DNA of 63,075 bases from Prevotellaceae bacterium (lineage in GTDB: Bacteria; Bacteroidota; Bacteroidia; Bacteroidales; UBA932), in assembly GCA_031270845.1 (NCBI GenBank), contig JAISXF010000032.1, forward strand, positions 1 through 63,075. Reading direction: 5' to 3'. Both the position numbers and the translations under genes were made by a program. Below are positions 690-58,162 of this stretch, in pieces; position 1 is the stretch's first letter; each line of letters opens with the position of its first letter. The notes under the pieces are model-generated. The model had not been told where the DNA came from. It ran no database searches and saw only the letters and a program-made list of their open reading frames with translations.

Positions 690-1776
690 TTAATTATTTG
701 CCGTACTTAAATACGCTTTCATAAATCCGTTGAGTTCGCCGTCGAGGACAGCCTGCGTGTCCGACGATTCGTAGCCGGTGCGGTGGTCTTTCACCAATTT
801 GTAGGGATGCAGCGTATAGCTGCGGATTTGCGAACCCCATTCGATTTTCTTTTTCTGGCCTTCGATTTCGCTTTCCTTTTCGCGACGGCGGCGCAGTTCC
901 AGCTCGTAGAGATGCGACCGGAGGATGCGCAACGCATTCTGCCGGTTGTCCATCTGCGACCGGCTTTCCGTATTTTCGACCGTGATACCGGTCGGGATAT
1001 GCCGCACGCGCACGCCCGTTTCCACCTTATTGACATTCTGACCCCCAGGCCCGCCCGAGCGGAACGTATCCCATTCCAAATCTCCGGCGCTGATTTCAAT
1101 CTGAATACTGTCGTCCACCGCCGGAATAACGAACACCGACGAGAATGTCGTCTGTCGTTTGCCCTGCGCGTTGAACGGCGAGATACGAACCAGCCGGTGC
1201 ACCCCGTTTTCGGCTTTCAGGAACCCGTATGCGTACTCGCCCTCGTATTCAATCGATGCCGACTTAATGCCGGCCTCGTCGCCGTCGAGGACATCGAAGA
1301 CCGTTACTTTATAGCCGTTGCGTTCGCCCCAGCGCACGTACATGCGCAGCAGCATCGCCGACCAGTCGTTGCTTTCGGTGCCGCCGGCGCCGGAATTAAT
1401 TTTCAGGATGGCGCCCATCCCGTCGGCCTCGTCGCCGAGCATGTTGCGCATCTCTAATTCTTCGACGGCGGCCGAAGCGGTAGCGTACTGGGCATCGACA
1501 TCGGCGTTGGCGCCGGCGTCTTCTTTGGCCAGTTCGACCCACACGGCCAGTTCTTCGACGGCATCGGCTACGGCGTGATAGCCGGCAAGGAGCGATTTAA
1601 GCGCCGCGATTTTTTTTAATTGAATTTCGGCGGCTTTCGGGTCGTTCCAAAAGTCGGGCTGGTGTGTTTTCGCGTCTTCCGCGTGTAGAAGCAGGGTATT
1701 GGCATCGACGTCAAAGGCACCCCCTCAACGCCTGTTCACGTTCTTGAAGGTTTTTTAATTGTTCGGCAGTAATCAT
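690..1776 (-). CDS. prfB: Peptide chain release factor 2, made by a programmed +1 frameshift (21 codons in frame 0, then 340 codons)
   Basis: The 690..1544 ORF has the SPF and GGQ motifs (RISPFNAQGKRQTTFSS, RSGGPGGQNVNKVETG). Its frame stays open upstream to 1712. A short frame-0 ORF, ATG 1776 MITAEQLKNLQEREQALRGCL, ends at TGA 1713-1711. The length is 1087 nt = 63+1+1023. Confidence 0.93.
1710..1725 (-). promoter_or_regulatory. prfB autoregulatory +1 frameshift site AGGGGG-TGC-CTT-TGA-C
   Basis: The minus strand reads AGG GGG TGC CTT TGA C. It has a Shine-Dalgarno-like AGGGGG 3 nt before the slippery CTT, then an in-frame TGA followed by C. This is the same architecture as the E. coli prfB site (AGG GGG TAT CTT TGA C). 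Confidence 0.9.
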
Positions 1777-2396: not shown

Positions 2397-2412
2397 GCTT
2401 TTTCTTACCTAT

Positions 2413-2482
2413 CGTTCATCGTTCATACTTCATCGTTCATCGTTCATACTTCATACTTCATACTTCATACTTCATCGTTCGG
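2413..2482. repeat. Heptamer array, 10 units (CGTTCAT / ACTTCAT)
   Basis: cgttcat x2, acttcat, cgttcat x2, acttcat x4, cgttcgg. It ends 16 nt before the ubiX stop codon. ACTTCAT is the reverse complement of the ATGAAGT units at 3105-3139. Confidence 0.95.
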
Positions 2483-2497
2483 TACGTTGAACGACCA

Positions 2498-3058
2498 TTA
2501 ATCATTCCATCGTTTTCCGCTGTGCGGCAGTCCGGCGAGCTGCAGTACGCGATCGACGACCGTGGCGGCGGCCTCTTCGACGGTCGCAGGATGGTGGTAG
2601 AACGACGGAGAGGCGGGGCAGATAATCCCGCCGGCGTCGGTCAGGTGCAGCATGTTTTGGAGGTGGATGCGATTGAGGGGCGCCTCGCGCGGCACGACAA
2701 TCAGCCGCCGGCGTTCTTTGAGCATCACGTCGGCGGCGCGCGCGAGCAGGTCGCTGCCCAGTCCGTTGGCTATCCGCGCCAGCGTGCCCATGCTGCACGG
2801 GATGATGATCATCGTATCCGCCGCGGCGGAGCCGGAGGCAAACGGCGCATGGAAGTCGTCATTCGCGTAGCGGCGGAAAAGACCGGCATACGACCGGAAA
2901 CAGGCGTCGCCCAGCTCGTGCCGGAAGACCTCTTCGCCACAGGCCGAAAACACGACGGCTACCTCGACCTCCGCCGGCATCCGCCGGAGGGCATCCATGA
3001 GCTGGCGGGCATAAATCGCCCCGCTCGCGCCGGTAATAGCGACTGTAATATGATGCAT
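2498..3058 (-). CDS. ubiX: Flavin prenyltransferase UbiX
   Basis: 186 aa. MHHITVAITGASGAIYA..MIIIPCSMGTLARIANG..RRRLIVVPREAPLN..ICPASPSFY is typical of the UbiX/Pad1 family. Confidence 0.88.
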   Translation of the reverse strand: MHHITVAITGASGAIYARQLMDALRRMPAEVEVAVVFSACGEEVFRHELGDACFRSYAGLFRRYANDDFHAPFASGSAAADTMIIIPCSMGTLARIANGLGSDLLARAADVMLKERRRLIVVPREAPLNRIHLQNMLHLTDAGGIICPASPSFYHHPATVEEAAATVVDRVLQLAGLPHSGKRWND

Positions 3059-3104: not shown

Positions 3105-3322
3105 ATGAAGTATGAAGTATGAAGTATGAAGTATGAAGTATGAACTATGAACTATGAACTATGAACTATGAACGGCGACAAGCGAGCAACCTTATATATT
3201 GTTTGTATCCGTCGGCAGGCCGTTCATAGTTCATAGTTCATACTTCATACTTCATACTTCATACTTCATACTTCATACTTCATACTTCATAGTTCATAGT
3301 TCATAGTTCATAGTTCATAGTT
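3105..3322. repeat. Head-to-head heptamer arrays forming a ~218-bp potential cruciform: (ATGAAGT)5(ATGAACT)5 - 46-bp spacer - (AGTTCAT)3(ACTTCAT)7(AGTTCAT)4
   Basis: The left arm is 3105-3174 and the right arm is 3221-3322. The unit types of the two arms are exact reverse complements. The structure lies between the divergent ubiX and ruvA promoters. Confidence 0.95.
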
Positions 3323-3401: not shown

Positions 3402-3983
3402 ATGTATGAATTTATAAAGGGTTTTGTAGCGGAGCTGACGCCGACGTATGTTGTTATTGATACGGGCAGTATGGGTTATACGGTGAATATTTCGCTGCAG
3501 ACGTATGGAAATATCGGGCAGGCACAGCAGGTACGCTTATGGTTGCATCACATTGTACGTGAAGACGCGGAACAGCTCTACGGGTTCTTCGACAGGGAAG
3601 AGCGCGAGGTGTTTCGGTTGCTGGTGGGGGTTTCGGGCGTAGGCCCGAATACGGCGCGGATGGTGCTTTCGTCGCTCTCGTCGGCCGAAGTGCGCAACGC
3701 TATTCAGCACGACGATGCGCGGCGGCTGCAAAGCATTAAGGGCATCGGACTGAAAACCGCCCAGCGGATAGTGGTCGATTTGAAAGACCGTATGGGGAAG
3801 ACGCTGCTCTCGGGCGATGCGGGAGCCGCGCAGCCGCAAAGTGCGCATCAGGAAGCGCTCTCGGCGCTTATTATGCTGGGCTTCGCCAAAGCGCCAGCCG
3901 AAAAGGTCATCCAGTTACTTATCAGGGAAAATACAGCCCACACGGCGGAACAGCTCATTAAAGCCGCCTTGAAGCGATTATAA
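3402..3983 (+). CDS. ruvA: Holliday junction branch migration complex subunit RuvA
   Basis: 193 aa. MYEFIKGFVAELTPTYVVIDTGSMGYTVNISLQTY.., helix-hairpin-helix region LLVGVSGVGPNTARMVLS..IKGIGLKTAQRIVVDLK. Confidence 0.9.
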   Translation: MYEFIKGFVAELTPTYVVIDTGSMGYTVNISLQTYGNIGQAQQVRLWLHHIVREDAEQLYGFFDREEREVFRLLVGVSGVGPNTARMVLSSLSSAEVRNAIQHDDARRLQSIKGIGLKTAQRIVVDLKDRMGKTLLSGDAGAAQPQSAHQEALSALIMLGFAKAPAEKVIQLLIRENTAHTAEQLIKAALKRL

Positions 3984-11794: not shown

Positions 11795-11929
11795 GATTTA
11801 GCATCCGCAGGCAAATACGTTTTGTTGATTTTTGAGATTGTTTTACAAACCATGCACGGCACGCTGAATTAGACATAGGGTTAAATGTTCTCGCAAAACG
11901 CAAACAGTCTGTTTGCGTTTTTGTTTTTT
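11795..11929 (+). ncRNA. Candidate orphan small RNA (~130 nt) bounded by its own -7 box and terminator
   Basis: A -7 box TACCTTTG lies at 11782-11789. There is no credible ORF downstream. A terminator hairpin CGCAAACAG-TC-TGTTTGCG at 11899-11917 is followed by a T-tract. The 5' region carries GCATCCGCAGGCAA, a motif shared with 19799-19815 and 47518-47534. Confidence 0.35.
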
Positions 11930-15252: not shown

Positions 15253-15336
15253 GCGGGACGCGAACCGCCGTATCGTATTTTTTTAGAATAATGGAATGAT
15301 GTTCTGTATGCGGGTCATGTACCCGCGTCCGCGTCG

Positions 15337-15504
15337 CTCGGACTCGAGTCCGCGCGGCTCGGACCCGAGTCCGCAAGGCTCGGACTCGAGTCCGCGTGGC
15401 CCGGACTCGAGTCCGCGTGGCTCGGACTCGAGTCCGCGTCGCTCGGACTCGAGTCCGCGAGGCTCGGACTCGAGTCCGCGTGGCTCGGACACGTGTCCGC
15501 GGGT
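15337..15504. repeat. 21-bp tandem array x8, each unit containing the perfect 14-bp palindrome CGGACTCGAGTCCG
   Basis: CTCGG unit starts fall at 15337, 15358, 15379, 15400, 15421, 15442, 15463 and 15484. The 7-nt spacers are variable (CGnnGCT). The last unit is the variant palindrome CGGACACGTGTCCG. A degenerate hairpin GCGGGTCATGTACCCGC lies just upstream. Confidence 0.95.
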
Positions 15505-17967: not shown

Positions 17968-19602
17968 ATGAAAAAAGTATTCCTTTCCATGATTGCCCTG
18001 TGCGGCATCTGTGCGGCGTATGCCGGCGACAGTACACTGACCGTTACCAAACGCTATATAAATCTGCCCGTCGCGCAGGAGGCGGAACGAAACAGGATGA
18101 CGTTCCATATCGACGGCGAGGTGGAGCGGACGTTTGTTATCCGCCTCTCCGACACGCCCGACTATTGGGTGTTCTGCGACATGAGCGCCTACCGGGGCGC
18201 CACGCTCCGTATCGCGTTCGACGGCAAGGCGGCGGGGCTGGCCAAAATCTATCAGGACGACCGGATTGCCGGCGCCGACAGCCTCTACCGCGAGGCCGCT
18301 CGCCCGCAGTTCCATTTCACCTCGCGGCGGGGGTGGAACAACGACCCCAACGGACTGCTGTTCCACGACGGCGAGTACCACCTCTTCTACCAGCATAATC
18401 CCTACGAGCGCGAATGGGAAAACATGCACTGGGGACATGCCGTAAGCCGCGACCTTGTCCGCTGGCAGGAGTTGCCGCCGGCGTTATACCCCGATGCCAT
18501 CGGCACGATGTTCTCCGGCTCGGCTGTTGTAGATGATGAAAATACGGCGGGGTTCAACCGCGGCGATACGCCGGCCATTGTCGCCGTATATACGGCCGCC
18601 AGCCCCGAGCGACAGGTGCAGTGCATCGCCTACAGTACCGACAGGGGGCGCACGTGGACAAAATACGCCGGCAACCCGGTCGTCGATTCCAAAGCGGCGT
18701 GGAACAGCCAGGATACGCGCGACCCCAAAGTGTTCCGCCACGCGCCCACCCGACGATGGGTGATGGTGCTTAACGAACGCGACGGGCATTCGATTTATAC
18801 CTCCGCCAACCTTCGGGAATGGCGCTTCGAGAGCCATGTTACGGGCTTCTGGGAATGCCCCGACCTCTTTGAGCTGCCTGTCGATGGCGACACGGCGAAC
18901 ACGCGGTGGGTGATGTACGGCGCGTCGGGGGCATATATGATTGGCCGCTTCGACGGGCGGCAGTTCATCCCTGAAGGGGGAAAATACTATTACACCACCG
19001 GCGCCCTGTATGCCGCGCAAACATTCGCCGGTATCCCCGCAGCCGACGGGCGGCGGATACAGATAGGCTGGGGGCGAATCGCGCACGGCCCGATGCCGTT
19101 TAACGGAATGATGCTGCTCCCTACCGAACTGACACTGCGTACGACGAAAGACGGCATCCGGCTGTTCAGTAATCCCGTCAAGGAAATCGACCGGCTGCAG
19201 GGCGACAGCCGGACGTGGACGAAACTCACCGCCGCGCAGGCCAACAGGGCGATGGAAGCCTACCGGCAATCGGACTGTCTGCGTATCAAAGCCCGCATCA
19301 AACTCTCGCACGCCACCGACGCCGGGCTGCGCCTGCACGGGCAGTCGATACTGACCTACGATATGAACTTTAATACCGTCAACGGCGTCTTCTACTCGCC
19401 CGAAGAGCCGACGTCGATGGAGCTGTCGGTCGATATTTTGATTGATAAAACGTCGGTAGAGGTGTTTGTCGATGGCGGCGCCTATTCGTACGCGCTGCAG
19501 CGGGAGCTTAACAGCCCGAACCGCGAGGGATTCCGGTTTTGGGGGAACAACCCGGAAATCGTGTCTCTGGAGGTCTATGAAATGCGGACGATTTGGAATT
19601 AG
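17968..19602 (+). CDS. Glycoside hydrolase family 32 (beta-fructofuranosidase / levanase-type), secreted
   Basis: 544 aa with a signal peptide. GH32 catalytic motifs are present: GWNNDPNGL (WMNDPNG block), TRDPKVF (RDP) and FWECPDLF (EC). Confidence 0.9.
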   Translation: MKKVFLSMIALCGICAAYAGDSTLTVTKRYINLPVAQEAERNRMTFHIDGEVERTFVIRLSDTPDYWVFCDMSAYRGATLRIAFDGKAAGLAKIYQDDRIAGADSLYREAARPQFHFTSRRGWNNDPNGLLFHDGEYHLFYQHNPYEREWENMHWGHAVSRDLVRWQELPPALYPDAIGTMFSGSAVVDDENTAGFNRGDTPAIVAVYTAASPERQVQCIAYSTDRGRTWTKYAGNPVVDSKAAWNSQDTRDPKVFRHAPTRRWVMVLNERDGHSIYTSANLREWRFESHVTGFWECPDLFELPVDGDTANTRWVMYGASGAYMIGRFDGRQFIPEGGKYYYTTGALYAAQTFAGIPAADGRRIQIGWGRIAHGPMPFNGMMLLPTELTLRTTKDGIRLFSNPVKEIDRLQGDSRTWTKLTAAQANRAMEAYRQSDCLRIKARIKLSHATDAGLRLHGQSILTYDMNFNTVNGVFYSPEEPTSMELSVDILIDKTSVEVFVDGGAYSYALQRELNSPNREGFRFWGNNPEIVSLEVYEMRTIWN

Positions 19603-19824
19603 GAATTGCCTGCGGGGGATGAAGCGCTACACGCGATGAAAGGGTGAAGGGGTGTGTGCGCCGTGCCTGAAAGGCAGGGCAGGGGAGTTGAGGGTTGAAG
19701 GCCTGCCTTTGGCAGGCGGTGGGAGAAGGTGTTGCCGTCCGCAGATTACGGCTATTGCCCTCCCTGCGGTTATGAAAATTCCGCCTTTCAGGCGCCCTGC
19801 ATCCGCCGCAGGCAATTCCTAATT
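19597..19824. repeat. 228-bp MITE-like element with 25-bp terminal inverted repeats (24/25 match) between two convergent genes
   Basis: The left TIR is aattaggaattgcctgcgggggatg (19597-19621). The right TIR is catccgccgcaggcaattcctaatt (19800-19824). The interior holds three short GC hairpins (TGCCT-GAA-AGGCA, CTGCC-TTT-GGCAG, GCCT-TTC-AGGC). Mobility is an inference only. Confidence 0.7.
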
Positions 19825-20292
19825 TCTAATTTCTAATTTTTCTATTCTCCGCTGGTGCCGTCCGCCGTCGAAAGAAGTGGCGAGGAAGGTGGCGACAATG
19901 GCTTGTGCCGTGTCGGGCGAGAGGAAGCGAGCAGGTAGCGAACAGACATTGGCGTTGTTGTGCGCCCGTGCCAGACGGGCTATCTCCGGCTGCCAGCAGA
20001 GGGCGGCGCGGATGCCGGGGTAACGGTTGAGGGTCATGCTTATTCCGTTGCCGGTGCCGCAGAGGGAGATGCCGGCGGTTACCTCCCCGCTCAGGAGGGC
20101 ATCGGCCAGCGGGCGGGCGACGTCGGGATAATCGACGCTCTCGGTGGTGTAGGCGCCGAAATCGCGGACGGCATATCCCTGCGCTTCGAGCCATGTTATT
20201 AAAAAGGCTTTCAGCGGCACGCCGGCATGGTCGGCCGCAATGCCGATCGGTAGCCATTGACTGTTGGCTATTGACGATTGACGATTGTCCAT
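19819..20292 (-). CDS. rpiB: Ribose-5-phosphate isomerase B
   Basis: 157 aa. IGIAADHAGVPLK..CGTGNGISMTLNRYPGIRAAL..AHNNANV..GGRHQRRIEKL are RpiB/LacAB family hallmarks. Confidence 0.9.
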   Translation of the reverse strand: MDNRQSSIANSQWLPIGIAADHAGVPLKAFLITWLEAQGYAVRDFGAYTTESVDYPDVARPLADALLSGEVTAGISLCGTGNGISMTLNRYPGIRAALCWQPEIARLARAHNNANVCSLPARFLSPDTAQAIVATFLATSFDGGRHQRRIEKLEIRN

Positions 20293-25165: not shown

Positions 25166-25218
25166 AAATCACATCAATCAAAAGCGCCGGATGAATCAAA
25201 ATTCAGAAAAAACGACTT

Positions 25219-25470
25219 CCGTGGCAAATGAGATAACTTCCGTAACACATGAGACGAACTCCGTAACACATGAGATGAACTTCATAACACATGAGACGAA
25301 CCCCGTAACACATGAGATGACTTCCGTCTCAAGTGTGATGAACCCCATCACACTTGCCACGGAAGTCATCTCATGTGCCACGGAAGTCATCTCATGTGGT
25401 ACGGGGTTCATCTCACTTGCTACGGAAGTTATCTCATTTGCTGCGGAAGTTATCATCTGTGTGGCGCTGC
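25219..25470. repeat. 252-bp array of 12 x 21-bp units: 6 forward units then 6 reverse-complement units (giant palindrome with ~126-bp arms)
   Basis: Forward units read CCGTAACACATGAGAyGAACT, with starts at 25219, 25240, 25261, 25282, 25303 and 25324. Inverse units read TCATCTCATGTGCCACGGAAG, with starts at 25345, 25366, 25387, 25408, 25429 and 25450. The symmetry centre is at 25344/25345. Confidence 0.95.
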
Positions 25471-32825: not shown

Positions 32826-33024
32826 AGACAGAGAAGACTCCCGGAACATAGACTTTCAGACAGAACAGAGACGGAGAGACCTTCAGAGCATAGACGTTCA
32901 GACAGAACAGAGACGGAGAGACTTTCAGAGCATAGACGTTCAGACAGAGCATAGACTTAAAGACACGTGCCCGACAGCGCAGAGACGTAAAGACACGTGC
33001 CCGACAGCACAGGATGTGCCTGTG
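32826..33024. repeat. Composite AGAC-rich tandem repeats: 42-bp unit x2 (+partial), then 30-bp unit x2, ending in a hairpin
   Basis: CAGACAGAACAGAGACGGAGAGAC..CATAGACGTT starts at 32857 and 32899, with a partial copy at 32941. AAAGACACGTGCCCGACAGC repeats at 32961 and 32991. The hairpin CACAGG-ATGTG-CCTGTG lies at 33008-33024. Confidence 0.9.
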
Positions 33025-34023: not shown

Positions 34024-35767
34024 AACCAATTACAAACAGCGGCTGTTCCTTTACTTCGTGGTCATATTCACGGTGTTTGCCGCAGGCATATTCTTCTTTG
34101 AGCAGTCGCGCGAGCGGAAACATAAAACCATAGCCCTCGAAGAGAAATTGGATGCGTATGCCGGTCTGATTGACGCCGCGATACGCCGCGACAGCGGACG
34201 ATTGACTGCGTCGGCGCTGCCCCTGGGGCTGCTTCCCGACAATATCCGGCTGACGATTATCGACCGGCAGGGAACCGTTGTCTTCGATAATGCCATCACC
34301 GACGCCGCCCGGATGGAAAACCACGCCCACCGCCCCGAAATCGCCGCCGCCCGCGAAACCGGCAAAGGCAGCCACATCCGTATCTCGGCATCCAACGAAA
34401 AGGAATATCTCTACTATGCCCGTCAGTTCGACCGGTACTATATCCGCGTGGCCTTGCCCTACGATATTGAGGTTCGCCGGTTCCTGAAAGCCGACCGGCT
34501 GTTCCTGTACTACCTCGCGGCGCTGTTTGTGATTATTCTTTTTATAATAAATATTGTCGCCAGCCGCTTTGGCAAGTCTATCCGGCAACTGCGCGACTTT
34601 ACGCGGGCGATGGAACATCCCGCCGCCGGCGCTCCGGGTACTCTGCCGGAGCTGCCCCGCCCCCTCTTCCCGCCCGACGAGCTGGGCGAAATAGGCGCCC
34701 AGATTGTAGAAAACTACCGGAAATTGGAGGAAAGCCGGAAGGTCATTGTCCTCGAACGGGAGAAGCTCCTCCAGCATGTCCACAGTTCCGACGAGGGCAT
34801 CTGTTTCTTCTCGGCCGCGCGCACCGTCGAGTTCTACAACGGGCTGTTCATTCAATATCTCAATACGATTACCGACGCCGCCGGCATCGACCCTGCCGTG
34901 GCGCTCACCGACGCGGCCTTTGCCCCCGTGGCTGCCTTCCTCCGGAATCGCGAACCGCAGGAAGCGTATTTTGAAACGCAAATCGACCGGCAGGGCAAGA
35001 TTTTTGCCGTCCGCATAAATGTATTCGATGATACCGGTTTTGAAATTATTATTAATGACATCACCACGCCCGAAAAAACACGCCGGCTGAAGCAGGAAAT
35101 GACCGGCAACATCACCCACGAACTCCGCACGCCGGTTACCGGTATTCGCGGATGCCTCGAAACAATACTTGGGCATAAGCTCGAACCCGAAAAGCGCGAT
35201 TACTTTATCCGCAGCGCCTACAACCAGGTGCTTACCCTGTCGGAACTGATCCGCGACATGAGCCTGATCACCAAAATGGAGGGCGCCCCGCAGTCGTTCC
35301 GTCAGGAAGCCGTCAATATTCCCGCCCTGCTCAACGCCCTGCGCAACGACCTCGAAATCCCCCTGCGGGAGAGGAACATCCGCCTCACATGGTCGATGGC
35401 CGAGAGCGTAGTCGTCAAAGGCAACCGCAACCTGCTGTACGCGATTTTCCGCAACCTCACCGATAATGTCATCCGCTATGCCGGTGCAGGCGTTACGGCG
35501 ACTATTTTGGTGTATAACGAAGACCGCGAGTTCTATTATTTTTCGTATGCCGACAACGGTCCCGGCATCCCCGACGAGCAGCATCTGAACCGTCTCTTCG
35601 AGCGCTTTTACCGGGTCGGCGAAGGGCGCACGCGCGATACCGGCGGCTCTGGGCTGGGGCTGTCGATTGTCAAAAACGCCGTCGCCTTCCACAAAGGCGC
35701 CATCGTCGCCAAAAACAGAGCCGGCGGCGGACTCGAATTTCTGTTTAAATTGAAAATTGAAAATTGA
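34016..35767 (+). CDS. Sensor histidine kinase (two TM segments, PAS-like linker, HisKA + HATPase_c)
   Basis: The start ATG 34016 overlaps the RR stop (ATGATTAA). H-box HELRTPVTGIRGCLE; N/G boxes NLTDNVIRYA, DNGPGIP, GGSGLGLSIVKNA. Confidence 0.9.
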   Translation: MIKTNYKQRLFLYFVVIFTVFAAGIFFFEQSRERKHKTIALEEKLDAYAGLIDAAIRRDSGRLTASALPLGLLPDNIRLTIIDRQGTVVFDNAITDAARMENHAHRPEIAAARETGKGSHIRISASNEKEYLYYARQFDRYYIRVALPYDIEVRRFLKADRLFLYYLAALFVIILFIINIVASRFGKSIRQLRDFTRAMEHPAAGAPGTLPELPRPLFPPDELGEIGAQIVENYRKLEESRKVIVLEREKLLQHVHSSDEGICFFSAARTVEFYNGLFIQYLNTITDAAGIDPAVALTDAAFAPVAAFLRNREPQEAYFETQIDRQGKIFAVRINVFDDTGFEIIINDITTPEKTRRLKQEMTGNITHELRTPVTGIRGCLETILGHKLEPEKRDYFIRSAYNQVLTLSELIRDMSLITKMEGAPQSFRQEAVNIPALLNALRNDLEIPLRERNIRLTWSMAESVVVKGNRNLLYAIFRNLTDNVIRYAGAGVTATILVYNEDREFYYFSYADNGPGIPDEQHLNRLFERFYRVGEGRTRDTGGSGLGLSIVKNAVAFHKGAIVAKNRAGGGLEFLFKLKIEN

Positions 35768-35799
35768 AAATTACGACAAGCGGAGAATTTTCAATTTTT
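35748..35799. repeat. Heptamer array AATTGAA x3 + AATTACG, forming a 13-bp AT-rich hairpin with AATTTTCAATTTT; candidate bidirectional terminator
   Basis: Stem 35760-35772 pairs with 35786-35798. The loop is ACGACAAGCGGAG, which contains the AATTACGACAAGCG junction also found at 47.55 kb. The HK stop TGA (35765-35767) and the deaminase stop (35799-35801) both fall within or adjacent to the structure. Confidence 0.8.
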
Positions 35800-45171: not shown

Positions 45172-47487
45172 TCAGCAGGGTTGTATAGGCGTTGTGGGAT
45201 GATTATAACAAGAATTAGTCCAGCCTTTACCGGTATAGATACTTGGAGTGCAGGTGGAAGATCCAGGGTTGTTCTCGTATTCTATGCAATTACTATTATT
45301 GCTGGGCAGCGAATTGAATAAAGCATCCAGCGCCGTAGCGGAAAGGTTATTATCACGACAATACAGATAATATAACAAGACACAGTTCGACACGTCTAAT
45401 TCCGTCAATGAATTATTGTCACATATCAAACCATGTAGCGCGGTACAGTTCGACACATCTAATGTTATCAATTCACTGTTAACACATTCCAAAAGAACTA
45501 GCGCGGTACAGCTCGACACGTCTAATTCCGTCAATGAAGTGTTTTGACACACTAAACTAATTAGCGCGGTACAGCCCGTCACGTCCAATGTCGTCAGGAC
45601 ATAACTATTGGTAAAAAGCAAAGAAACAAGCTTGGTACAGTTCGATACATCTAAAGTTACCAAGCCTGCGCAACACCTGAGAAGCAAATACTCCAGTGCG
45701 GGGTGGTTCGACAGATCCAAAGACGTCAAGTAAGGACAATCGTAGATATACAAACGAGTTAGTGTAGGACAGTCATTCAAATTCAGGGCAGTAAAGTTGT
45801 TTCCATAAAAAATATTGAATTCAGTCAAAGAGGATGCCGTCGCGGTAGCAGTGTACGTCCCGTTGCCGACAGGATATGTATGCGGATAGTTAATCCTAGA
45901 ACCGGCAGCGGGCGTAAAGATTTCTACCGGGCTTCCATCGCCCCAGTCTATCGCCATATACCCGCCGTCAATTATAGCGTCGAAGGAAAAAGACGTTCCA
46001 TTGCTCTCCACCGTAAAGCTAAACGTTTTTGAAACGCTCAGCACGCCCTGCGCTACGTCGAAGGCGCAGCCGGTGGCATCGGTAGCGATAACGGTGTAGG
46101 TATAGGCCGAGGCGGCGGCAAGAGCTTCGGTGGTAGCCGTGCCGCTAATTGTAAGGGTCGGGCTGGCCCAGGAGCCGGTTATGCCATTGGGCAGGCCGGT
46201 TACGCTAACGCTAACCGCGCCGGGAATACTGTAAACAATGGGAGACAGGAGTGTATCGACAGCTATCGTCTGGGTTTCGCTGCCGGAAATCAGCTCCGCT
46301 ACCGGCGCTTCAGATGCCACCCCTACCGTCCAGCTCACGCTATCCGCGCAGCCGTGCTCGGTAAGCACCCGCGCCCATACGGTAACGCTTCCCGAGTCGG
46401 GTATCGGAAGGGAATAGGTATTCGAGGTACTGTAAACACACGTGTCATTATTCAAATCACAGTAAAACTCCGTCGCTATATTATTCCCCGACGTGTACGG
46501 ATTATGCCCGCAGGCGGTACAGCTGTGCGTGAAGCAGTACGAGCTGCCGGAATTGTTTTCAACCGTCAGCGTAACCGTGCTGCCCGCGCAGGCCGAGTCG
46601 GGCGGATTAACAAACGCCGCCACCGCCGCCGGATAAACCGTTACCGACGCCGGCGTACCCGCCACCACACAGCCCCCGCCATTGCTCACCTGTATGGTAC
46701 AAACCGTATCCTGCGAAGGGGTTATTTTAGCCGTAACGCCCGAAATGGCGCTCACAATCCCCGTCGCCCCGCCATCAAAACTGTACACCGAAGCATTAAC
46801 CGCCACGGCGATGAGCGTAACGGTATCGCCGGCGCAGATGGTATCAGGCTGCGCAATAAAAGACGTAATCGCCGGCGTGGGAGGCGCCAACCCCGGACAG
46901 CCGGTGGCATCGGTAAGGGCATCGATACAGCCGGAAAACTGCGTCCCGGCAACTGTCGTCGAACCATTAATAATAAAGGGAGGCGTGCCGTGCAAATCAT
47001 ACGTGCCGTTATTCTCCGTAGCATTTGGCGGATAGTCCGACGCATACGTACACCAGTTAAAACGGTCGCCGGCCGATAGCCCGTCGAGCGCGACGGTTAC
47101 CGTCGAACTGAAGGGCGCCGTCGTCCCGCGCAGGTAGAAGCCGCGCGTGTTGCCGGCCACATGTATCACCGTGCCGGAGGTAGCCACCGCCGGCGATACG
47201 AGCGTCGCAGGCGTCCACGCCCCCGTAAGCCCGTTCGGCTGCACGGTCTGGTAATCGACAAAGAGCCACACCGAGTCAAGGTGCGTGATGCCGTCGGGGT
47301 CGGTATCCCAGAAGACACGGAAGGAAACCGTCGGCGGCGTGGCGGCATAGTCGGCGCTAATCTGCGCCACCCGCACCACGCTCTGCCCCTGTGCCGTGGC
47401 GAAGGACAGACATAAGAAGGACAGACACAAGACGGATAGACGTAAGACGGATAGACGTGAGACGGTGGTTAAAAATAGCGGCTTCAT
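45172..47487 (-). CDS. Secreted Cys-rich Ig-like repeat protein with a C-terminal leucine-rich-repeat (BspA-like) domain
   Basis: 771 aa from ATG 47487 (MKPLFLTTVSRLSVLRLSVLCLSFLCLSFATAQG). The C-terminal third is a ~23-aa LRR series (LTELDVSNCTALVLLECVNSELITLDVSNCTALHGLICDNNSL..). The longer track ORF (to 47679) reads through the heptamer array and overlaps the neighbouring gene. Confidence 0.75.
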   Translation of the reverse strand: MKPLFLTTVSRLSVLRLSVLCLSFLCLSFATAQGQSVVRVAQISADYAATPPTVSFRVFWDTDPDGITHLDSVWLFVDYQTVQPNGLTGAWTPATLVSPAVATSGTVIHVAGNTRGFYLRGTTAPFSSTVTVALDGLSAGDRFNWCTYASDYPPNATENNGTYDLHGTPPFIINGSTTVAGTQFSGCIDALTDATGCPGLAPPTPAITSFIAQPDTICAGDTVTLIAVAVNASVYSFDGGATGIVSAISGVTAKITPSQDTVCTIQVSNGGGCVVAGTPASVTVYPAAVAAFVNPPDSACAGSTVTLTVENNSGSSYCFTHSCTACGHNPYTSGNNIATEFYCDLNNDTCVYSTSNTYSLPIPDSGSVTVWARVLTEHGCADSVSWTVGVASEAPVAELISGSETQTIAVDTLLSPIVYSIPGAVSVSVTGLPNGITGSWASPTLTISGTATTEALAAASAYTYTVIATDATGCAFDVAQGVLSVSKTFSFTVESNGTSFSFDAIIDGGYMAIDWGDGSPVEIFTPAAGSRINYPHTYPVGNGTYTATATASSLTEFNIFYGNNFTALNLNDCPTLTRLYIYDCPYLTSLDLSNHPALEYLLLRCCAGLVTLDVSNCTKLVSLLFTNSYVLTTLDVTGCTALISLVCQNTSLTELDVSSCTALVLLECVNSELITLDVSNCTALHGLICDNNSLTELDVSNCVLLYYLYCRDNNLSATALDALFNSLPSNNSNCIEYENNPGSSTCTPSIYTGKGWTNSCYNHPTTPIQPC
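47401..47465. repeat. 15-bp tandem repeat x4 inside the signal-peptide codons of the LRR gene
   Basis: gaaggacagacataa / gaaggacagacacaa / gacggatagacgtaa / gacggatagacgtga. On the coding strand this gives RLSVL RLSVL CLSFL CLSF. Confidence 0.9.
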
Positions 47488-47490
47488 AAT

Positions 47491-47520
47491 AGTTGAAAGT
47501 TGTTTTTTAGTTGAAAGTTG
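47491..47520 (-). promoter_or_regulatory. Duplicated CAACTTTCAACT leader motif abutting the LRR gene ATG
   Basis: The minus strand reads CAACTTTCAACTAAAAAACAACTTTCAACTATT-ATG. Related duplicated motifs abut the ATGs at 17968 and 58163. Confidence 0.4.
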
Positions 47521-47564
47521 CCTGCGGCGGATGCAATATATGCGTTTACTCGCTTGTCGTAATT
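47518..47564 (-). repeat. Conserved ~47-bp array-junction module AATTACGACAAGCGAGTAAACGCATATATTGCATCCGCCGCAGGCAA
   Basis: Hand alignment to 3168-3222: the blocks CGACAAGCGAG (11/11), ATATATTG (8/8), ATCCG (5/5) and CAGGC are shared. AATTACGACAAGCG (14/14) is also at 35769-35782. GCATCCGCCGCAGGCAA (17/17) is also at 19799-19815. Confidence 0.85.
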
Positions 47565-47599
47565 CGTAATTCGTAATTCGTAATTCGTAATTCGTAATT
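47558..47599. repeat. Heptamer array CGTAATT x6 (= AATTACG on the minus strand)
   Basis: Six perfect units fill the gap between the stop of 47601..48257 and the conserved module. Confidence 0.95.
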
Positions 47600-48257: not shown

Positions 48258-48327
48258 AGTATAAAAATTTTAAATGAAACATAATGAATGAATTAATTTA
48301 TAATTGTAAAAATAATTTCGGACAGGA

Positions 48328-48474
48328 CGGAACTTTCTCTCCAAGGAGCGGAACTTTCTCTCCAAGGAGCGGAACTTTCTCTCCAAGGAGCGGAACTTTC
48401 TCTCCAAGGAGCGGAAGTTTCTCTCCAAGGAGCGGAAGTTTCTCTCCAAGGAGCGGAAGCAGGAAATATGATAT
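48328..48474. repeat. 21-bp tandem array x7 (CGGAACTTTCTCTCCAAGGAG; the last three units have CGGAAGT)
   Basis: Unit starts are at 48328, 48349, 48370, 48391, 48412, 48433 and 48454, with a partial copy at 48475. The core CTCC-AA-GGAG is a small palindrome. Confidence 0.95.
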
Positions 48475-48518
48475 ATTATTTTTTAAAATCATGCGCGCAA
48501 AGATACGACTTTTTTTTG

Positions 48519-48526
48519 AAAAAATT
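48519..48526 (-). promoter_or_regulatory. -7 box TATCTTTG pointing left, through the 21-bp array toward the 218-aa gene
   Basis: It is part of a perfect 19-bp inverted repeat, CAAAGATACGACTTTTTTT (48519-48537) / AAAAAAAGTCGTATCTTTG (48601-48619). Confidence 0.45.
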
Positions 48527-48611
48527 TTTTTTACGCAATTTTTTTTTTATCCGGAACGTTTTTTTAAAAAAATAGTGAGAAAAAAAGTCGTATCTTTGTG
48601 GCGAAAAAAAT

Positions 48612-48619
48612 TTAATGGG
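48612..48619 (+). promoter_or_regulatory. -7 box TATCTTTG pointing right, toward the R-M genes
   Basis: This is the right arm of the same 19-bp inverted repeat, 93 nt before ATG 48712. Confidence 0.45.
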
Positions 48620-48711
48620 GATAAATAGTAAAAACAAAAGGATAACGACAACTAAAGCCCTGAAAAACGAACAAAATTGGAATTGATAAGGCAAAGTTAA
48701 AAATAGCTATT

Positions 48712-49383
48712 ATGCACAAAAGACCGCTCACAATAAAATCTCTAATCTCACTTGCAAAAACATTTTGCGAACAAGAATCAAAAATGCCAAATACAGAACT
48801 ATTTGGCGTAACTGATGGCAAAGCCGTAGGCACATATATTGAACATAAATTCAAAGATTTTTTGCTCGCAACGTGCGATTTGCAAGTGGGTAGTTCGGCA
48901 AGCGGCATTGATTTGCCTTCCTCAAAAATCAACACAGATATTAAGGTTACTTCTATTAAGCAACCGCAGTCGTCCTGTCCATTCAAAAATGCACAGCAAA
49001 AAATTTTCGGCTTGGGTTACAATTTGTTGGTTTTTGTGTACGACAAACGCGATAATGCAAAAGATAAAACGGCGTTATTGGATTTTGTCAGTTGTTCGTT
49101 TATAGAAAAAGAGCGGACTGCCGATTATCAAACTACGACAACAATTTTACAAATGCTCGCAAACAAGGCAAATGCAGACGATATTTTTGCTTTTCTGAAT
49201 GACCGCAACATTCCTGCCGATGAAATTACATTAATGAATATGGCGGAACAAATTTTAAAAAAACCGCCAAAAGCTGGTTATCTTACTATTTCCAACGCTT
49301 TGCAATGGAGATTACAATACAGCAGGATTGTAACATTAAAAGATAAAATTTCAGGAATTACCAAAATCGTAGATAAGTATTGA
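48712..49383 (+). CDS. Candidate type II restriction endonuclease
   Basis: 223 aa, AT-rich codon usage. It ends 1 nt before the methyltransferase ATG. A possible PD-(D/E)xK arrangement is ..SGIDLP-x9-DIKVTS.. I recognise no specific family, so the call rests mainly on context. Confidence 0.5.
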   Translation: MHKRPLTIKSLISLAKTFCEQESKMPNTELFGVTDGKAVGTYIEHKFKDFLLATCDLQVGSSASGIDLPSSKINTDIKVTSIKQPQSSCPFKNAQQKIFGLGYNLLVFVYDKRDNAKDKTALLDFVSCSFIEKERTADYQTTTTILQMLANKANADDIFAFLNDRNIPADEITLMNMAEQILKKPPKAGYLTISNALQWRLQYSRIVTLKDKISGITKIVDKY

Positions 49384-49384
49384 T

Positions 49385-51031
49385 ATGGATTTTAGTGGTA
49401 TAGATATTAGCATCCCGTCGGTTTGTTTTTTTCAGGATAACGATAAATTGTCTTTCAAAGAAATAAACAATATTTTGAAAGGCAAAAGCGGTATTGTTGA
49501 TTTTTTTGAAAAAGAAGACGATTTTAAACAAATAAGAGAAACACTGATGAATAGCCAATCCATTGTTGCCGAAAGTCAAGTAGAATACGGCGATTATCAA
49601 ACCAATCAACAACTTACGCAATTGGTTTGCAACTATTTGTCAAACAAAAATATAAATCCTCAAATACTTATTGAGCCAACTTGCGGGAAGGGAAATTTTA
49701 TTTTGTCGGCAATTCAGACATTCAAAAATTTAGAACAGGTTTGGGGAATTGAAATACAAGAAAAATATTTGTGGCAATTAAAATTTTCATTACTTGAATA
49801 TTACCTAAAAAATCCACAGGCAAATAAACCTGAAATCCATTTATATCATTACGATGTATTTAATTTTGATTTTCAGAAGATTAAAGAACAAATAAGCGGG
49901 AAGGAGCTGTTGGTTATCGGCAATCCTCCGTGGGTAACTAACACAACACTTTCCTCTTTGAACTCAAAAAATTTACCTGAAAAGTCCAATTTCAAACAGG
50001 CAAAAGGTATAGACGCAATCACAGGCAAAGGCAATTTTGATATTGGCGAGTTTATTGCGTTGAAAATGTTGGATTTGTTTTCGAAAGAGAATGGTCATTT
50101 CGCATTTTTAATCAAAAATTCGGTCATCAAAAACATTGTTTTCGAGCAGAAACGCAACAATTACCCGATTGCCGACTTTGAAAAACATACGATTAACGCA
50201 CAAAAAGAATTTGGGGCGGCGGTTGACGCAAGTTTATTTGTCTGCAAATTCAATTCTACGCCTGAATTTACCGCAAAAGAATACAATTTTTATACTTCAC
50301 AAAAACGCACTGTGTTAGGTTGGGTGAATAACAAATTTGCTTCCGATATCGAAAAATACAAGAAATATCAGCACTTAGACGGTGTTTGCCCTTTCGAGTG
50401 GCGACAGGGCATTAAGCATGACTGCGCCAAAGTGATGGAGTTGGAACGTATCGACGGCGGTTTTCGCAATCAACTCGGAGAAGAATTTGAATTAGAGGAG
50501 GATCTAATATATGGTATTTTAAAAAGTTCCGATTTGAAAGCCGAAAGCATTGACACACCACGAAAATACACCATTGTAACACAGAAAAAAATCGGTGAAA
50601 ATACGGAAAAAGTTTTATCGAAATTACCAAAAACAAAAGAATATTTGCAAAAACACAAAGAATATTTTTCGCAAAGAAAATCAAGTATTTACAACGGGAA
50701 ACCTATGTTTTCGATATTTGGGATTGGCGATTATTCATTCAAACCTTACAAAGTTGCTATTTCAGGACTTTATAAACAAACGAAATTCACATTGGTAAAG
50801 CCAAGTGATACGGTTTTATTACTTGATGATACTTGCTATTTTATCGGCTTTGACAATCTCGAAGACGCCCAAACAGTACAAAATGAATTAAACAATTCCG
50901 AAATGCAGGAATTTATACAATCGTTTATGTTTACTGATGCCAAACGAGCGATTACAAAAGATTTGTTGATGCGAATTTATCTGAAAACGGCAATCGTGCC
51001 GGAAAGATATTCATGGAATTTATTTGGCTAA
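49385..51031 (+). CDS. N6-adenine DNA methyltransferase (gamma-type motif order, Eco57I/TaqI-like)
   Basis: 548 aa. The AdoMet motif I LIEPTCGKGNFIL precedes the catalytic motif IV LLVIGNPPWV (NPPW). The long C-terminal region is consistent with a target-recognition domain. Confidence 0.8.
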   Translation: MDFSGIDISIPSVCFFQDNDKLSFKEINNILKGKSGIVDFFEKEDDFKQIRETLMNSQSIVAESQVEYGDYQTNQQLTQLVCNYLSNKNINPQILIEPTCGKGNFILSAIQTFKNLEQVWGIEIQEKYLWQLKFSLLEYYLKNPQANKPEIHLYHYDVFNFDFQKIKEQISGKELLVIGNPPWVTNTTLSSLNSKNLPEKSNFKQAKGIDAITGKGNFDIGEFIALKMLDLFSKENGHFAFLIKNSVIKNIVFEQKRNNYPIADFEKHTINAQKEFGAAVDASLFVCKFNSTPEFTAKEYNFYTSQKRTVLGWVNNKFASDIEKYKKYQHLDGVCPFEWRQGIKHDCAKVMELERIDGGFRNQLGEEFELEEDLIYGILKSSDLKAESIDTPRKYTIVTQKKIGENTEKVLSKLPKTKEYLQKHKEYFSQRKSSIYNGKPMFSIFGIGDYSFKPYKVAISGLYKQTKFTLVKPSDTVLLLDDTCYFIGFDNLEDAQTVQNELNNSEMQEFIQSFMFTDAKRAITKDLLMRIYLKTAIVPERYSWNLFG

Positions 51032-58129: not shown

Positions 58130-58134
58130 TAACG

Positions 58135-58162
58135 TTCAACTTTCAATTTTCAACTTTCAATT
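58135..58162 (+). repeat. 14-bp (2x7) repeat TCAACTTTCAATTT / TCAACTTTCAATTA abutting the RND pump ATG
   Basis: Read directly. It is the reverse-complement relative of the AGTTGAAAGTTG repeats at 47491-47520. Confidence 0.9.

What the first reader, a model, noticed from the sequence alone, without database searches (positions are those of the whole stretch)
3168..3222. Conserved ~45-bp module at the inner edge of heptamer arrays, shared between loci 44 kb apart
3168-3222 reads atgaacgg-CGACAAGCGAG-caacctt-ATATATTG-tttgt-ATCCG-tcgg-CAGGC-cg. It aligns by hand with the minus strand of 47518-47564, which reads aattacg-ACAAGCGAG-taaacgc-ATATATTG-c-ATCCG-ccg-CAGGC-aa. In both places the module follows directly after a heptamer array, although the array units differ (ATGAACT versus AATTACG). 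Partial copies exist elsewhere: AATTACGACAAGCG at 35769-35782; GCATCCGCCGCAGGCAA at 19799-19815, with its inverted near-copy at 19606-19621; and GCATCCG-CAGGCAA at 11801-11815. A conserved unique sequence attached to variable arrays suggests a functional anchor. Candidates include a protein-binding or recombination site, a promoter (ATATATTG is one base from TAnnTTTG), or the 5' end of a transcript family.
Basis: seen in the sequence. Interest (0 to 1): 0.7.

Follow-up and report, generated by a model that had tools for sequence, protein, structure and literature searches.

The report
Conserved cap between heptamer repeat arrays
The 45-bp module is real: it is this genome's version of a short GC-rich "cap" that punctuates the 7-bp repeat arrays filling the intergenic DNA of a group of uncultured gut Bacteroidales, it behaves like a dispersed mosaic repeat (REP/BOX/MITE-like) and not like a promoter, and what it does is still unproven.

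Summary
The module at 3174-3221(+) and the one at 47518-47560(-) share CGACAAGCGAG-N7-ATATATTG...ATCCG...CAGGC. Locus B is the best non-self match of locus A in the window (18.5 against 12.5; simulated P about 1e-4). The left block sits at array edges in 3 of its 5 occurrences (P about 3e-4).

Related uncultured Bacteroidales contigs carry a compact relative, GCGACAAGCG-N6-GGCGTCAGCC. I found 16 exact copies in one metagenome, plus variants. Every copy is embedded in heptamer arrays, usually at the apex of an array palindrome whose arms covary. A closer relative (L002) has GCGACAGCGG-TACGA-CCGCCGCAGGCC, which links the two forms. The window copies have an AT-rich centre of about 21-25 nt instead of about 6 nt.

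A promoter reading is not supported:
- There is no TAnnTTTG or sigma-70-type match.
- ubiX and ruvA each have a canonical box 34 nt from their start codon.
- Family members occur in both orientations and between convergent, divergent and tandem genes.

Best reading: the conserved cap of a dispersed mosaic intergenic repeat, closest to REP/BIME, BOX and BrickBuilt elements built on STRR-like heptamers. It probably acts at the DNA level as a hairpin apex or protein recognition site. The strict window pattern was absent from all three public collections, and no recognising protein was found. This is a new variant of a known kind, of moderate interest.

The parts
3105..3173 (+). Left arm of the locus A palindrome: (ATGAAGT)5 then (ATGAACT)5
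   Evidence: TRF period 7, 9.7 copies. It pairs with 3222-3322 in the predicted hairpin.
3174..3221 (+). Module A, the apex of the palindrome. Left block GCGACAAGCG 3175-3184; AT-rich centre with ATATATTG 3194-3201; right block CGTCGGCAGGCC 3210-3221.
   Evidence: The left block is identical to the left block of the compact module in relatives.
3222..3322 (+). Right arm: inverted array of AGTTCAT and ACTTCAT units, 14.4 copies
47557..47599 (-). (AATTACG)6 array. It begins 2 nt after the stop codon of the 218-aa gene and runs into module B.
47518..47560 (-). Module B. Left block ACGACAAGCG 47560-47551; ATATATTG 47541-47534; right block CGCCGCAGGCAA 47529-47518.
   Evidence: No significant fold of its own (z = 0.2).
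47490..47517 (-). AACTTTCAACT-aaaaaac-AACTTTCAACT leader. It lies between module B and the ATG (47487) of an LRR surface protein gene.
   Evidence: The same heptamer lies just before the ATG at 58131-58162 and before ATGs in L004 and L081.
35747..35798 (+). Hairpin of AAATTGA heptamers whose 13-nt loop, ACGACAAGCGGAG (35773-35785), is the left block alone. It is squeezed between the convergent stop codons of a histidine kinase gene and a deaminase gene.
   Evidence: z = -3.3.
19592..19621 (-). Right block in inverted copy: reading the minus strand, CATCCCCCGCAGGCAA followed by TTCCTAATTCC
   Evidence: 15/16 match to module B.
19798..19826 (+). Right block TGCATCCGCCGCAGGCAA followed by the array-like TTCCTAATTTCTAAT. 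Together with 19592-19621 it brackets a GC-rich element of about 215 bp between convergent genes.
   Evidence: (18/18 match, E = 3e-5).
2411..2480 (+). Array of TTCATAC and TTCATCG units. It is inverted relative to 3105-3172, so ubiX (2498-3058) is bracketed by perfect inverted repeats of about 40 bp.

Best explanation
The module is the local, diverged form of a bipartite GC-rich 'cap' element. It belongs to a family of dispersed mosaic intergenic repeats in a clade of uncultured, termite-gut-type Bacteroidales.

In this family, tandem heptamer arrays are bounded by two conserved blocks. The left block is GCGACAAGCG. The right block is GGCGTCAGCC in more distant relatives, and CCGCCGCAGGC(C/A) in the window and its closer relative L002. 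In relatives the two blocks are about 6 nt apart. In the window the centre has grown to about 21-25 nt, is AT-rich, and is shared by both copies.

Most often the cap is the apex of a long palindrome whose arms are inverted heptamer arrays, as at locus A. Sometimes it joins two unrelated arrays, as at locus B. Sometimes only half of it survives (35773; 19606 and 19798).

Most likely mechanism (inferred): the element acts on DNA. The cap nucleates or terminates a hairpin or cruciform. Its invariant blocks, including bases that cannot pair, are a sequence-specific recognition site for an unidentified protein that spreads or maintains the element, in the way RAYT does for REP sequences or a transposase does for a MITE. 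The AT-rich heptamer arms expand, contract and are kept complementary by slippage and intra-palindrome copying.

It is not a promoter.

Shown: the copies are real, they sit at array edges, the family exists in relatives, the arms covary, orientation and gene context are mixed, and promoter motifs are absent. Inferred: homology of the window form with the compact form, DNA-level action, a recognising protein, and the growth mechanism of the arrays.
For: - The A-B similarity is significant, and the left block is enriched at array edges.
- The compact module GCGACAAGCG-N6-GGCGTCAGCC has 16 exact copies in QMCD01/QMCE01 contigs of GC 0.41-0.53. All directly abut heptamer arrays. Variants such as GCGCGAAGCG-N6-GGCGTCAGCC and half modules also occur.
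- L085 has (AATTATG)n-module-(AATTCAT)n built from TATGAA-type heptamers like locus A. L109 has the same 'tgaacgGCGACAAGCG' junction as locus A.
- L002, a relative with 81% RuvA identity, has GGCGACAGCGGTACGACCGCCGCAGGCC next to (ATTGTTC)n. Its right block equals that of module B.
- One QMCD contig (L110) encodes an RF2 that is 84% identical to the window's, so that organism is a relative.
- The six array-derived pairs flanking the module covary. Five of the six show changes on both sides, 16 cells have double changes against 7.9 in shuffles, and pairing is 87.8% against 16-42% when the partner is slid.
- The long hairpins are strongly stable: z = -18.7, -10.6, -9.0 and -5.4.
- The blocks are invariant while the 6-nt centre varies.
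- In tandem-gene contexts the module reads with transcription in 4 regions and against it in 7. It also lies in 3 convergent and 3 divergent regions. All are intergenic (crude ORF calls).
- A composite of about 150 bp that includes the module is shared by two loci with unrelated flanks, differing by an indel of about three heptamers.
- Many copies lie at contig ends, as expected for a multi-copy repeat.
Against: - A covariance model built from the compact module finds nothing in the window (best E = 0.84, and modules A and B are not among the hits). Homology of the window form therefore rests on the 10-nt left block, its position at array edges, and the L002 intermediate.
- Only two full copies are known in this genome. 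The strict patterns gave 0 hits in the genome, metagenome and viral collections.
- The module is not conserved at the orthologous ruvA or ubiX loci of relatives. The L081 locus orthologous to B has a related cap in the opposite orientation.
- The pairs inside the module never vary, so they carry no structural evidence. RNAalifold prefers two 3-bp mini-hairpins. The variant left block GCGCGAAGCG would break the GAC/GTC pairing with no compensating change.
- The spacing between the two blocks differs by 5 nt between A and B, which argues against one rigid bipartite binding site.
- No transposase, recombinase or RAYT-like gene was found in the window or the fetched loci.
- Locus B forms no hairpin.
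Confidence: 0.55

Rival explanations
1. The element acts in RNA. When transcribed, the array-cap-array palindrome forms a long stem-loop that terminates transcription, blocks 3' exonucleases or is cut by RNase III. This would insulate neighbouring genes, as is reported for REP, ERIC and Correia elements.
For: - The predicted hairpins are very stable.
- Several copies lie just after stop codons: window 35747-35798 between convergent stops, L110 and L109 between convergent genes, and locus B 2 nt after a stop.
- A symmetric hairpin would explain why orientation does not matter.
Against: - Locus A lies between two divergent promoters, upstream of both TAnnTTTG boxes, where no transcript is expected.
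- Locus B and several relatives join non-complementary arrays and form no hairpin.
- The arm mismatches at locus A are C·C and G·G, not G·U.
- The scan found no terminator-like T tract at these sites.
- The block sequences are conserved even where they cannot pair.
- No Rfam family matches above threshold.
Confidence: 0.2
2. The caps have no function of their own. Polymerase slippage generates heptamer arrays from any AT-rich intergenic DNA, and GC-rich blocks are simply where slippage stops. The shared sequence reflects recent duplication or gene conversion from a few master copies.
For: - Heptamer repeats are over-represented in many bacteria, which has been ascribed to slippage (PMC4692102).
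- Arrays in the window use many unrelated units.
- Cap sequences differ between related genomes.
- The modules are not conserved at orthologous loci.
Against: - Conservation is patchy. Perfect 11- and 8-nt blocks flank a 7-nt stretch with almost no identity between A and B. Uniform decay after a duplication would not produce this.
- The same 10-nt left block persists across genomes whose proteins are only 50-84% identical.
- The 6-nt centre keeps its length while its sequence varies.
Confidence: 0.15
3. The module is a promoter or the start of a transcript family. ATATATTG would act as a degenerate -7 box driving ruvA at locus A and the LRR gene at locus B.
For: - Both window copies point toward a downstream gene.
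- The LRR gene has no canonical TAnnTTTG within 200 nt.
- BrickBuilt, an array-bearing repeat in Porphyromonas gingivalis, contains promoter elements (PMC4596501).
Against: - ATATATTG needs an indel or at least 2 mismatches to fit TAnnTTTG, and there is no -33 TTTG (direct reading).
- There is no sigma-70-type site.
- ruvA and ubiX have their own canonical boxes 34 nt from their starts.
- At locus A about 180 nt, including a 100-nt array arm, separate the module from the ruvA start.
- Compact relatives lack the AT-rich centre altogether, and they occur against transcription and between convergent genes.
Confidence: 0.08
4. The two loci are similar by chance.
For: - BLAST alone gives only an 11-mer with E = 0.49.
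- The 10-mer with up to one mismatch is not over-represented in the window.
Against: - Simulated P is about 1e-4 for the chained alignment.
- Array-edge placement has P about 3e-4.
- The same left block recurs at array edges in other genomes.
Confidence: 0.02

Closest known systems
REP / BIME elements of Enterobacteria and Pseudomonas (mobilised by RAYT, a Y1 HUH transposase)
   Same: Both are short, GC-rich, imperfectly palindromic units. Both are strictly intergenic, multi-copy, found in either orientation, and combined with other motifs into mosaics. In both, conserved unpaired bases suggest protein recognition.
   Different: REPs are not embedded in tandem heptamer arrays. The REP palindrome is the unit itself, whereas here the long stem is made of minisatellite arms and the conserved part is the apex. 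No RAYT gene was found or could be searched for genome-wide. The typical GTAG-type 5' tetranucleotide is not seen.
BOX elements of Streptococcus pneumoniae (boxA-(boxB)n-boxC)
   Same: Both are modular dispersed intergenic repeats in which conserved unique modules flank a tandemly repeated unit of variable copy number. Both fold into stable stem-loops.
   Different: The boxB unit is 45 nt and has the same sequence at all loci. Here the repeated unit is 7 nt (or 14, 21 and so on) and differs from locus to locus, while only the cap is shared.
BrickBuilt MITE of Porphyromonas gingivalis (PMC4596501)
   Same: Both occur in the order Bacteroidales. Both have a minisatellite flanked by conserved 'leader' and 'tail' subunits with small inverted-repeat ends. 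Both are always intergenic and present in many copies.
   Different: BrickBuilt has 23-nt bricks of one sequence, 19 copies per genome, and promoter activity shown experimentally. Here the units are variable heptamers, the conserved part usually lies between two arrays rather than outside one, no target-site duplication is seen, and promoter motifs are absent.
Heptamer tandem repeats: cyanobacterial STRR, TAACTGA repeats of Beggiatoaceae, Cyanobacteria and some Bacteroidetes (PMC4679880), GGGAATC repeats of Xanthomonas (PMC4692102)
   Same: Both consist of intergenic tandem heptamers, sometimes in inverted pairs, with indels in steps of 7 nt. Both often lie just 5' of start codons, as (AACTTTC)n does here. 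Function is unknown in all cases.
   Different: Those reports describe one or a few heptamer sequences per genome and no conserved non-repeat cap. Here there are dozens of different heptamers and a shared bipartite GC-rich boundary element.
Bacteroidota sigma-A promoter (-33 TTTG / -7 TAnnTTTG)
   Same: The module contains an AT-rich octamer ending in TTG, and both window copies point toward a gene.
   Different: The octamer does not fit the -7 consensus without an indel. There is no -33 element. The distance to the start codon is not fixed. Canonical boxes are present elsewhere in the same intergenic region.

Membership tests
Bacteroidota sigma-A promoter | -7 box TAnnTTTG | tested here: not met
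   No TAnnTTTG lies in either module. Ungapped fits of (T)ATATATTG need 2-3 mismatches (reading). Canonical boxes are found 34 nt before ubiX and ruvA, outside the module.
Bacteroidota sigma-A promoter | -33 TTTG about 19-21 nt upstream of the -7 box | tested here: not met
   The sequences upstream of ATATATTG are GAACGGCGACAAGCGAGCAACCTT (A) and ATTACGACAAGCGAGTAAACGC (B). Neither contains TTTG.
Bacteroidota sigma-A promoter | Fixed orientation and short distance to a downstream gene | tested here: not met
   In tandem-gene contexts, family members read with transcription in 4 regions and against it in 7. They also lie in 3 convergent regions. The distance to the start codon is about 180 nt at A and 31 nt at B.
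Bacteroidota sigma-A promoter | Mapped transcription start site | not testable with these tools
   No transcript data are available for this uncultured organism.
REP/BIME (RAYT-associated) | Imperfect palindrome of 20-40 nt | tested here: inconclusive
   The compact 26-mer can form 7 pairs with 3 bulges, but all of them are invariant. RNAalifold prefers two 3-bp hairpins. The variant left block breaks the pairing. The window copies do not share a fold.
REP/BIME (RAYT-associated) | Many dispersed, strictly intergenic copies | tested here: inconclusive
   This is met in relatives: 16 exact copies and about 10 variant copies in one metagenome, all intergenic. In the window there are only 2 full and 3-4 partial copies in 63 kb.
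REP/BIME (RAYT-associated) | Cognate RAYT (Y1 transposase) gene flanked by the repeats | not testable with these tools
   No Pfam transposase hit in the window ORFs. A tblastn with an approximate IS200 TnpA sequence was negative on about 320 kb of related loci. The whole genome is unavailable.
REP/BIME (RAYT-associated) | Mosaic combination with other conserved motifs | tested here: met
   Intergenic regions of L093, L112, L119 and L121 string together arrays, full caps, half caps and other shared motifs. A composite of about 150 bp is shared by two loci.
MITE (BrickBuilt-like: minisatellite within inverted-repeat ends) | Terminal inverted repeats bounding the element | tested here: inconclusive
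   Some arrays are bounded by perfect inverted blocks, for example CGCTTCGCGC...GCGCGAAGCG in L112 and the 27-bp inverted ends at window 19592-19826. In most copies the two blocks lie adjacent to each other between two arrays.
MITE (BrickBuilt-like: minisatellite within inverted-repeat ends) | Target-site duplication and empty sites at orthologous loci | tested here: not met
   No direct duplication is visible at the outer ends of the array palindromes. No clean filled/empty pair was obtained. L081, L082 and L083 are identical in this region.
Heptamer simple-sequence-repeat arrays (STRR / TAACTGA type) | Tandem 7-nt units, intergenic, with copy-number change in steps of 7 | tested here: met
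   There are 29 array regions with period 7, 14, 21, 42 or 63 in 63 kb. L094 and L121 differ by an indel of about three heptamers (22 nt). This describes the arrays, not the module.
Invertible promoter (inverton) | Inverted repeats flanking a promoter-bearing segment, with a site-specific recombinase | tested here: not met
   Inverted arrays do flank the 48-bp core at A, and also flank ubiX. But the core has no promoter motif, 48 bp is very short for an invertible segment, and no recombinase is encoded in the window. Read-level evidence for inversion is not available.

The most novel reading that the evidence does not exclude
The caps and arrays together form a lineage-wide DNA system that has not been described. 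The bipartite cap would be the loading or nucleation site (parS-like or attC-like) for a dedicated protein. That protein would either polymerise along 7-bp-periodic DNA, as the omega repressor of plasmid pSM19035 does on heptads, or cut and extend hairpins. It would thereby generate and homogenise heptamer arms on both sides of the cap. On this reading, the intergenic space of these Bacteroidales is actively written by an unknown enzyme, not passively filled by slippage.
Probability: 0.12. Interest if true: 0.85.

Novelty: new variant of a known kind. Interest (0 to 1): 0.5.

Why it matters
Intergenic heptamer arrays have been known for decades in Cyanobacteria, Xanthomonas, Beggiatoaceae and some Bacteroidetes, with no accepted function or origin. 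A conserved non-repeat sequence that marks where arrays begin, end or fold back offers a concrete way to study them. It is a candidate protein-recognition site that could be used as bait. It is a marker for cataloguing the elements across genomes. It is also a reference point for measuring array growth.

The elements also break assemblies: many copies lie at contig ends. Recognising them could therefore help in assembling and binning these uncultured gut Bacteroidales.

If the caps turn out to be only slippage barriers, that would still explain the architecture of these unusually repeat-rich intergenic regions.

Tried and rejected
1. Strict window-type patterns gave no hits. ACAAGCGAG-N7-ATATATTG-N1-5-ATCCG found 0 in genome contigs. 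CGACAAGCGAG-N7-ATATATTG found 0 in metagenome contigs and 0 in viral contigs. No genome-wide count is possible. The window is a whole 63,075-bp contig and its proteins occur on no other record.

2. The orthologous ruvA loci in the nine closest of the 80 fetched genomes (L001-L009) show no module upstream of ruvA. Synteny with ubiX is not kept. The ubiX orthologues are flanked by other cap variants and arrays, not by module A.

3. Rfam found only two tRNAs at gathering threshold. At relaxed threshold it found only sub-threshold eukaryotic miRNA-precursor hits on the long hairpin. I rejected these as generic hairpin matches.

4. A covariance model of the compact module, run with filters off, found no significant hit in the window. 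The window form therefore cannot be called a member of the compact family by this formal test.

5. A shared RNA fold for A and B was rejected. A has an 8-bp inner helix with three G·U pairs. B can form only 6 of those 8 pairs and folds no better than shuffles.

6. A tyrosine-recombinase core site (two inverted arms around a 6-nt spacer) was considered and rejected. The two blocks are not gapless inverted repeats of each other (4 of 10 positions match).

7. A sigma-70, sigma-54 or ECF-type promoter reading found no fit (and direct reading).

8. A phage or plasmid origin is not supported: 0 viral hits and a housekeeping gene context.

9. A literature search for the QMCD01/QMCE01 metagenome found nothing.

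10. Of the 36 hits of the compact pattern, 16 are embedded in heptamer arrays. The other 20 lie in array-free contigs, 19 of them GC-rich (GC 0.56-0.73), and were discarded as chance matches.

Full report
**What is in the window**

The window is a complete 63,075-bp contig of an uncultured Bacteroidales. Its genes are chromosomal and housekeeping: prfB, ubiX, ruvA, sprA, gcvH, purD, asnS, hutH, SusC/D, an EF-G-family GTPase gene, and acrB-type efflux. Canonical Bacteroidota TAnnTTTG boxes precede many genes. The closest RuvA proteins, at 84% and 81% identity, come from MAGs labelled 'Prevotellaceae bacterium Cc175_bin23' and 'Cd354_bin121'. From my own knowledge these isolate names are those of termite-gut MAG sets. 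I did not verify that here.

The intergenic DNA is unusual. Tandem Repeats Finder reports 29 array regions with period 7, 14, 21, 42 or 63, built from many different units.

**The observation**

Locus A lies between the divergent genes ubiX (2498-3058, minus strand) and ruvA (3402-3983, plus strand). In fact, the layout is:
- (ATGAAGT)5(ATGAACT)5 at 3105-3173
- a 48-nt core at 3174-3221
- an inverted array at 3222-3322

This predicts a hairpin of -117.9 kcal/mol as RNA (z = -18.7) and -72.2 kcal/mol as DNA (z = -19.2), with the module as its apex.

Locus B is on the minus strand and reads as follows:
- the stop codon of a 218-aa gene
- (AATTACG)6
- the module
- an AACTTTC-type leader
- the ATG of an LRR protein gene

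Locus B has no significant fold (z = 0.2).

**Is it more than chance?**

Yes.
- BLAST alone reports only the 11-mer (E = 0.49).
- The chained alignment makes locus B the best non-self match of module A in the window, 18.5 against 12.5 for the next best.
- In 60 simulated windows the maximum score averaged 12.1 and never exceeded 14.5, giving a Gumbel P of about 1.3e-4.
- Three of the five CGACAAGCG words in the window lie at array edges (P about 3e-4). The word is not over-represented overall.

The third array-edge copy, at 35773-35785, is the left block alone. It forms the loop of a small hairpin of AAATTGA heptamers, squeezed between two convergent stop codons. The right block alone occurs twice, in inverted orientation, at 19606-19621 and 19798-19815. 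There it is followed outward by array-like TTCCTAATT sequence, and the two copies bracket a GC-rich element of about 215 bp.

**Related sequences**

The exact window form is absent from the three collections I could scan and from every locus fetched. A compact relative is common, however.

I first saw it in contigs carrying homologues of the 218-aa gene:
- L081 has GCGACAGGCG-TACAGT-GGCGTCAGCC and two variants, all between heptamer arrays.
- L085 has (AATTATG/AAGTATG)n-GCGACAAGCG-CACAGT-GGCGTCAGCC-(AATTCAT/ACTTCAT)n. This is the architecture of locus A, with the same left block and the same TATGAA-type heptamers.

A metagenome scan for GCGACARGCG-N6-GGCGTCAGCC returned 36 loci.
- Sixteen of them are QMCD01/QMCE01 contigs with GC 0.41-0.53. 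All carry GCGACAAGCG, and all directly abut heptamer arrays, mostly as inverted pairs.
- The other 20 lie in array-free contigs, 19 of them GC-rich (GC 0.56-0.73), and are chance matches.

An HMM search added variants such as GCGCGAAGCG-N6-GGCGTCAGCC and half modules.

One of these contigs (L110) encodes an RF2 that is 84% identical to the window's, so the organism is a relative. A still closer relative, L002 (81% RuvA identity), has GGCGACAGCGGTACGACCGCCGCAGGCC next to (ATTGTTC)n. It also has CCGCAGGCC followed by arrays at two further places. Its right block is the one found in module B and at 19798.

I therefore read the window module as the same bipartite cap with its centre expanded from about 6 nt to about 21-25 nt. 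This step is an inference. A covariance model built from the compact copies does not detect modules A or B.

**Properties of the family**

- The two blocks are invariant across 17 distinct copies. The 6-nt centre keeps its length but varies in sequence.
- The six pairs formed by the flanking arrays covary strongly. Five of the six pairs show changes on both sides, and pairing is 87.8% against 16-42% when the partner is slid. The palindromic symmetry around the cap is therefore maintained even though the heptamer differs from locus to locus.
- Pairs inside the cap never vary, so they carry no evidence. RNAalifold prefers two 3-bp mini-hairpins.
- All copies are intergenic. In tandem-gene contexts the cap reads with transcription in 4 regions and against it in 7. 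It also lies in 3 convergent and 3 divergent regions (using crude ORF calls of my own).
- Intergenic regions of the relatives are mosaics of arrays, caps, half caps and other shared motifs.
- A composite of about 150 bp is present at two loci with unrelated flanks, differing by an indel of about three heptamers.
- Many copies sit at contig ends.

**Function**

The promoter reading fails on every feature I could test.
- The module has no TAnnTTTG and no -33 TTTG.
- It has no sigma-70-type site.
- ubiX and ruvA each have a canonical box 34 nt from their start, between the gene and the palindrome.
- Orientation and gene context across the family are mixed.

No known RNA family matches. An RNA-level stem-loop role fits the copies that lie after stop codons. 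It does not fit locus A, which lies upstream of both divergent promoters, and it does not fit the non-palindromic copies.

Patchy conservation, a fixed-length variable centre, and blocks that persist even where pairing is lost all point to sequence-specific recognition on DNA. This is the pattern seen in REP/BIME, BOX and MITE-type repeats. The nearest precedent within Bacteroidales is BrickBuilt of Porphyromonas gingivalis, a minisatellite with a conserved leader and tail (PMC4596501).

The arrays themselves belong to the known but unexplained class of intergenic heptamer repeats (PMC4679880; PMC4692102). Cyanobacterial STRR sequences are cited from my own knowledge.

No recognising protein was found. 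The window ORFs have no transposase or recombinase Pfam hit, and a rough IS200 query was negative.

**Verdict**

The finding is real. The module is best filed as a new variant of dispersed mosaic intergenic repeat: a bipartite cap of heptamer-array palindromes. The mechanism remains inferred.

The main uncertainties are:
- whether the long-centre window form is homologous to the compact form
- the copy number in this genome
- whether the element acts on DNA or RNA, or not at all

Noticed in passing
whole window (e.g. 1976-2318, 15327-15501, 25215-25454, 32847-33012, 48324-48458): Nearly all long tandem arrays have periods that are multiples of 7 (7, 14, 21, 42, 63). The 21-bp arrays have 5-9 copies. 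25215-25327 and 25355-25454 are inverted 21-bp arrays that form a large palindrome. The arrays in 1976-2318 begin after CGCGCGCC-type GC blocks.
   Followed up: partly
2411-2480 and 3105-3172: ubiX (2498-3058) is bracketed by perfect inverted heptamer arrays of about 40 bp (…CTTCATACTTCATCGTT / AACGATGAAGTATGAAG…). Recombination between them could invert the whole gene.
   Followed up: partly
47490-47517 (-) and 58131-58162 (+); L004 316-347; L081 5369-5391, 5440-5462, 6704-6732: (AACTTTC)/(TTTCAAC) heptamers lie in forward orientation immediately 5' of start codons in the window, and the same heptamer arrays recur in related genomes (directly before an ATG at L081 6704-6732). This recalls the TAACTGA repeats proposed to be translational leaders (PMC4679880).
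   Followed up: partly
19603-19818: A GC-rich element of about 215 bp lies between the convergent GH32 and rpiB genes. It has roughly 27-bp inverted ends (GGAATTAGGAATTGCCTGCGGGGGATG / CATCCGCCGCAGGCAATTCCTAATTTC) and three internal GCCTG...CAGGC hairpins. Rfam finds no match.
   Followed up: partly
48324-48458; L081 5700-5900; L084 4770-4930; L085 2440-2770; L086 200-420: A 21-bp tandem array lies upstream of the 218-aa hypothetical gene in the window and in four homologous loci. Its position is conserved but its sequence is completely different in each. In three relatives it follows a short ORF that starts M..LNI.APR.
   Followed up: partly
48284-51031: This segment has low GC3 (0.31-0.35, against about 0.7 elsewhere). 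It encodes a protein with a weak MmeI-type methyltransferase match, so it is probably horizontally acquired restriction-modification or defence DNA.
   Followed up: no
690-1775 (-): prfB (RF2) is split over two frames, with the canonical CTT TGA C programmed +1 frameshift site. This is a known feature of prfB.
   Followed up: yes
45382-45596: A 63-bp (21-codon) repeat, 3.4 copies, lies inside the LRR surface protein gene that follows module B. It corresponds to the protein's leucine-rich repeats.
   Followed up: no
L093 4494-4507, L119 18-32 and 6211-6225: In the related metagenome the left block also continues into a different shared sequence (GCGACAAGCGCACTGATGAATCTATCTGTGCTAATCTG...). The blocks therefore recombine with other modules.
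   Followed up: no
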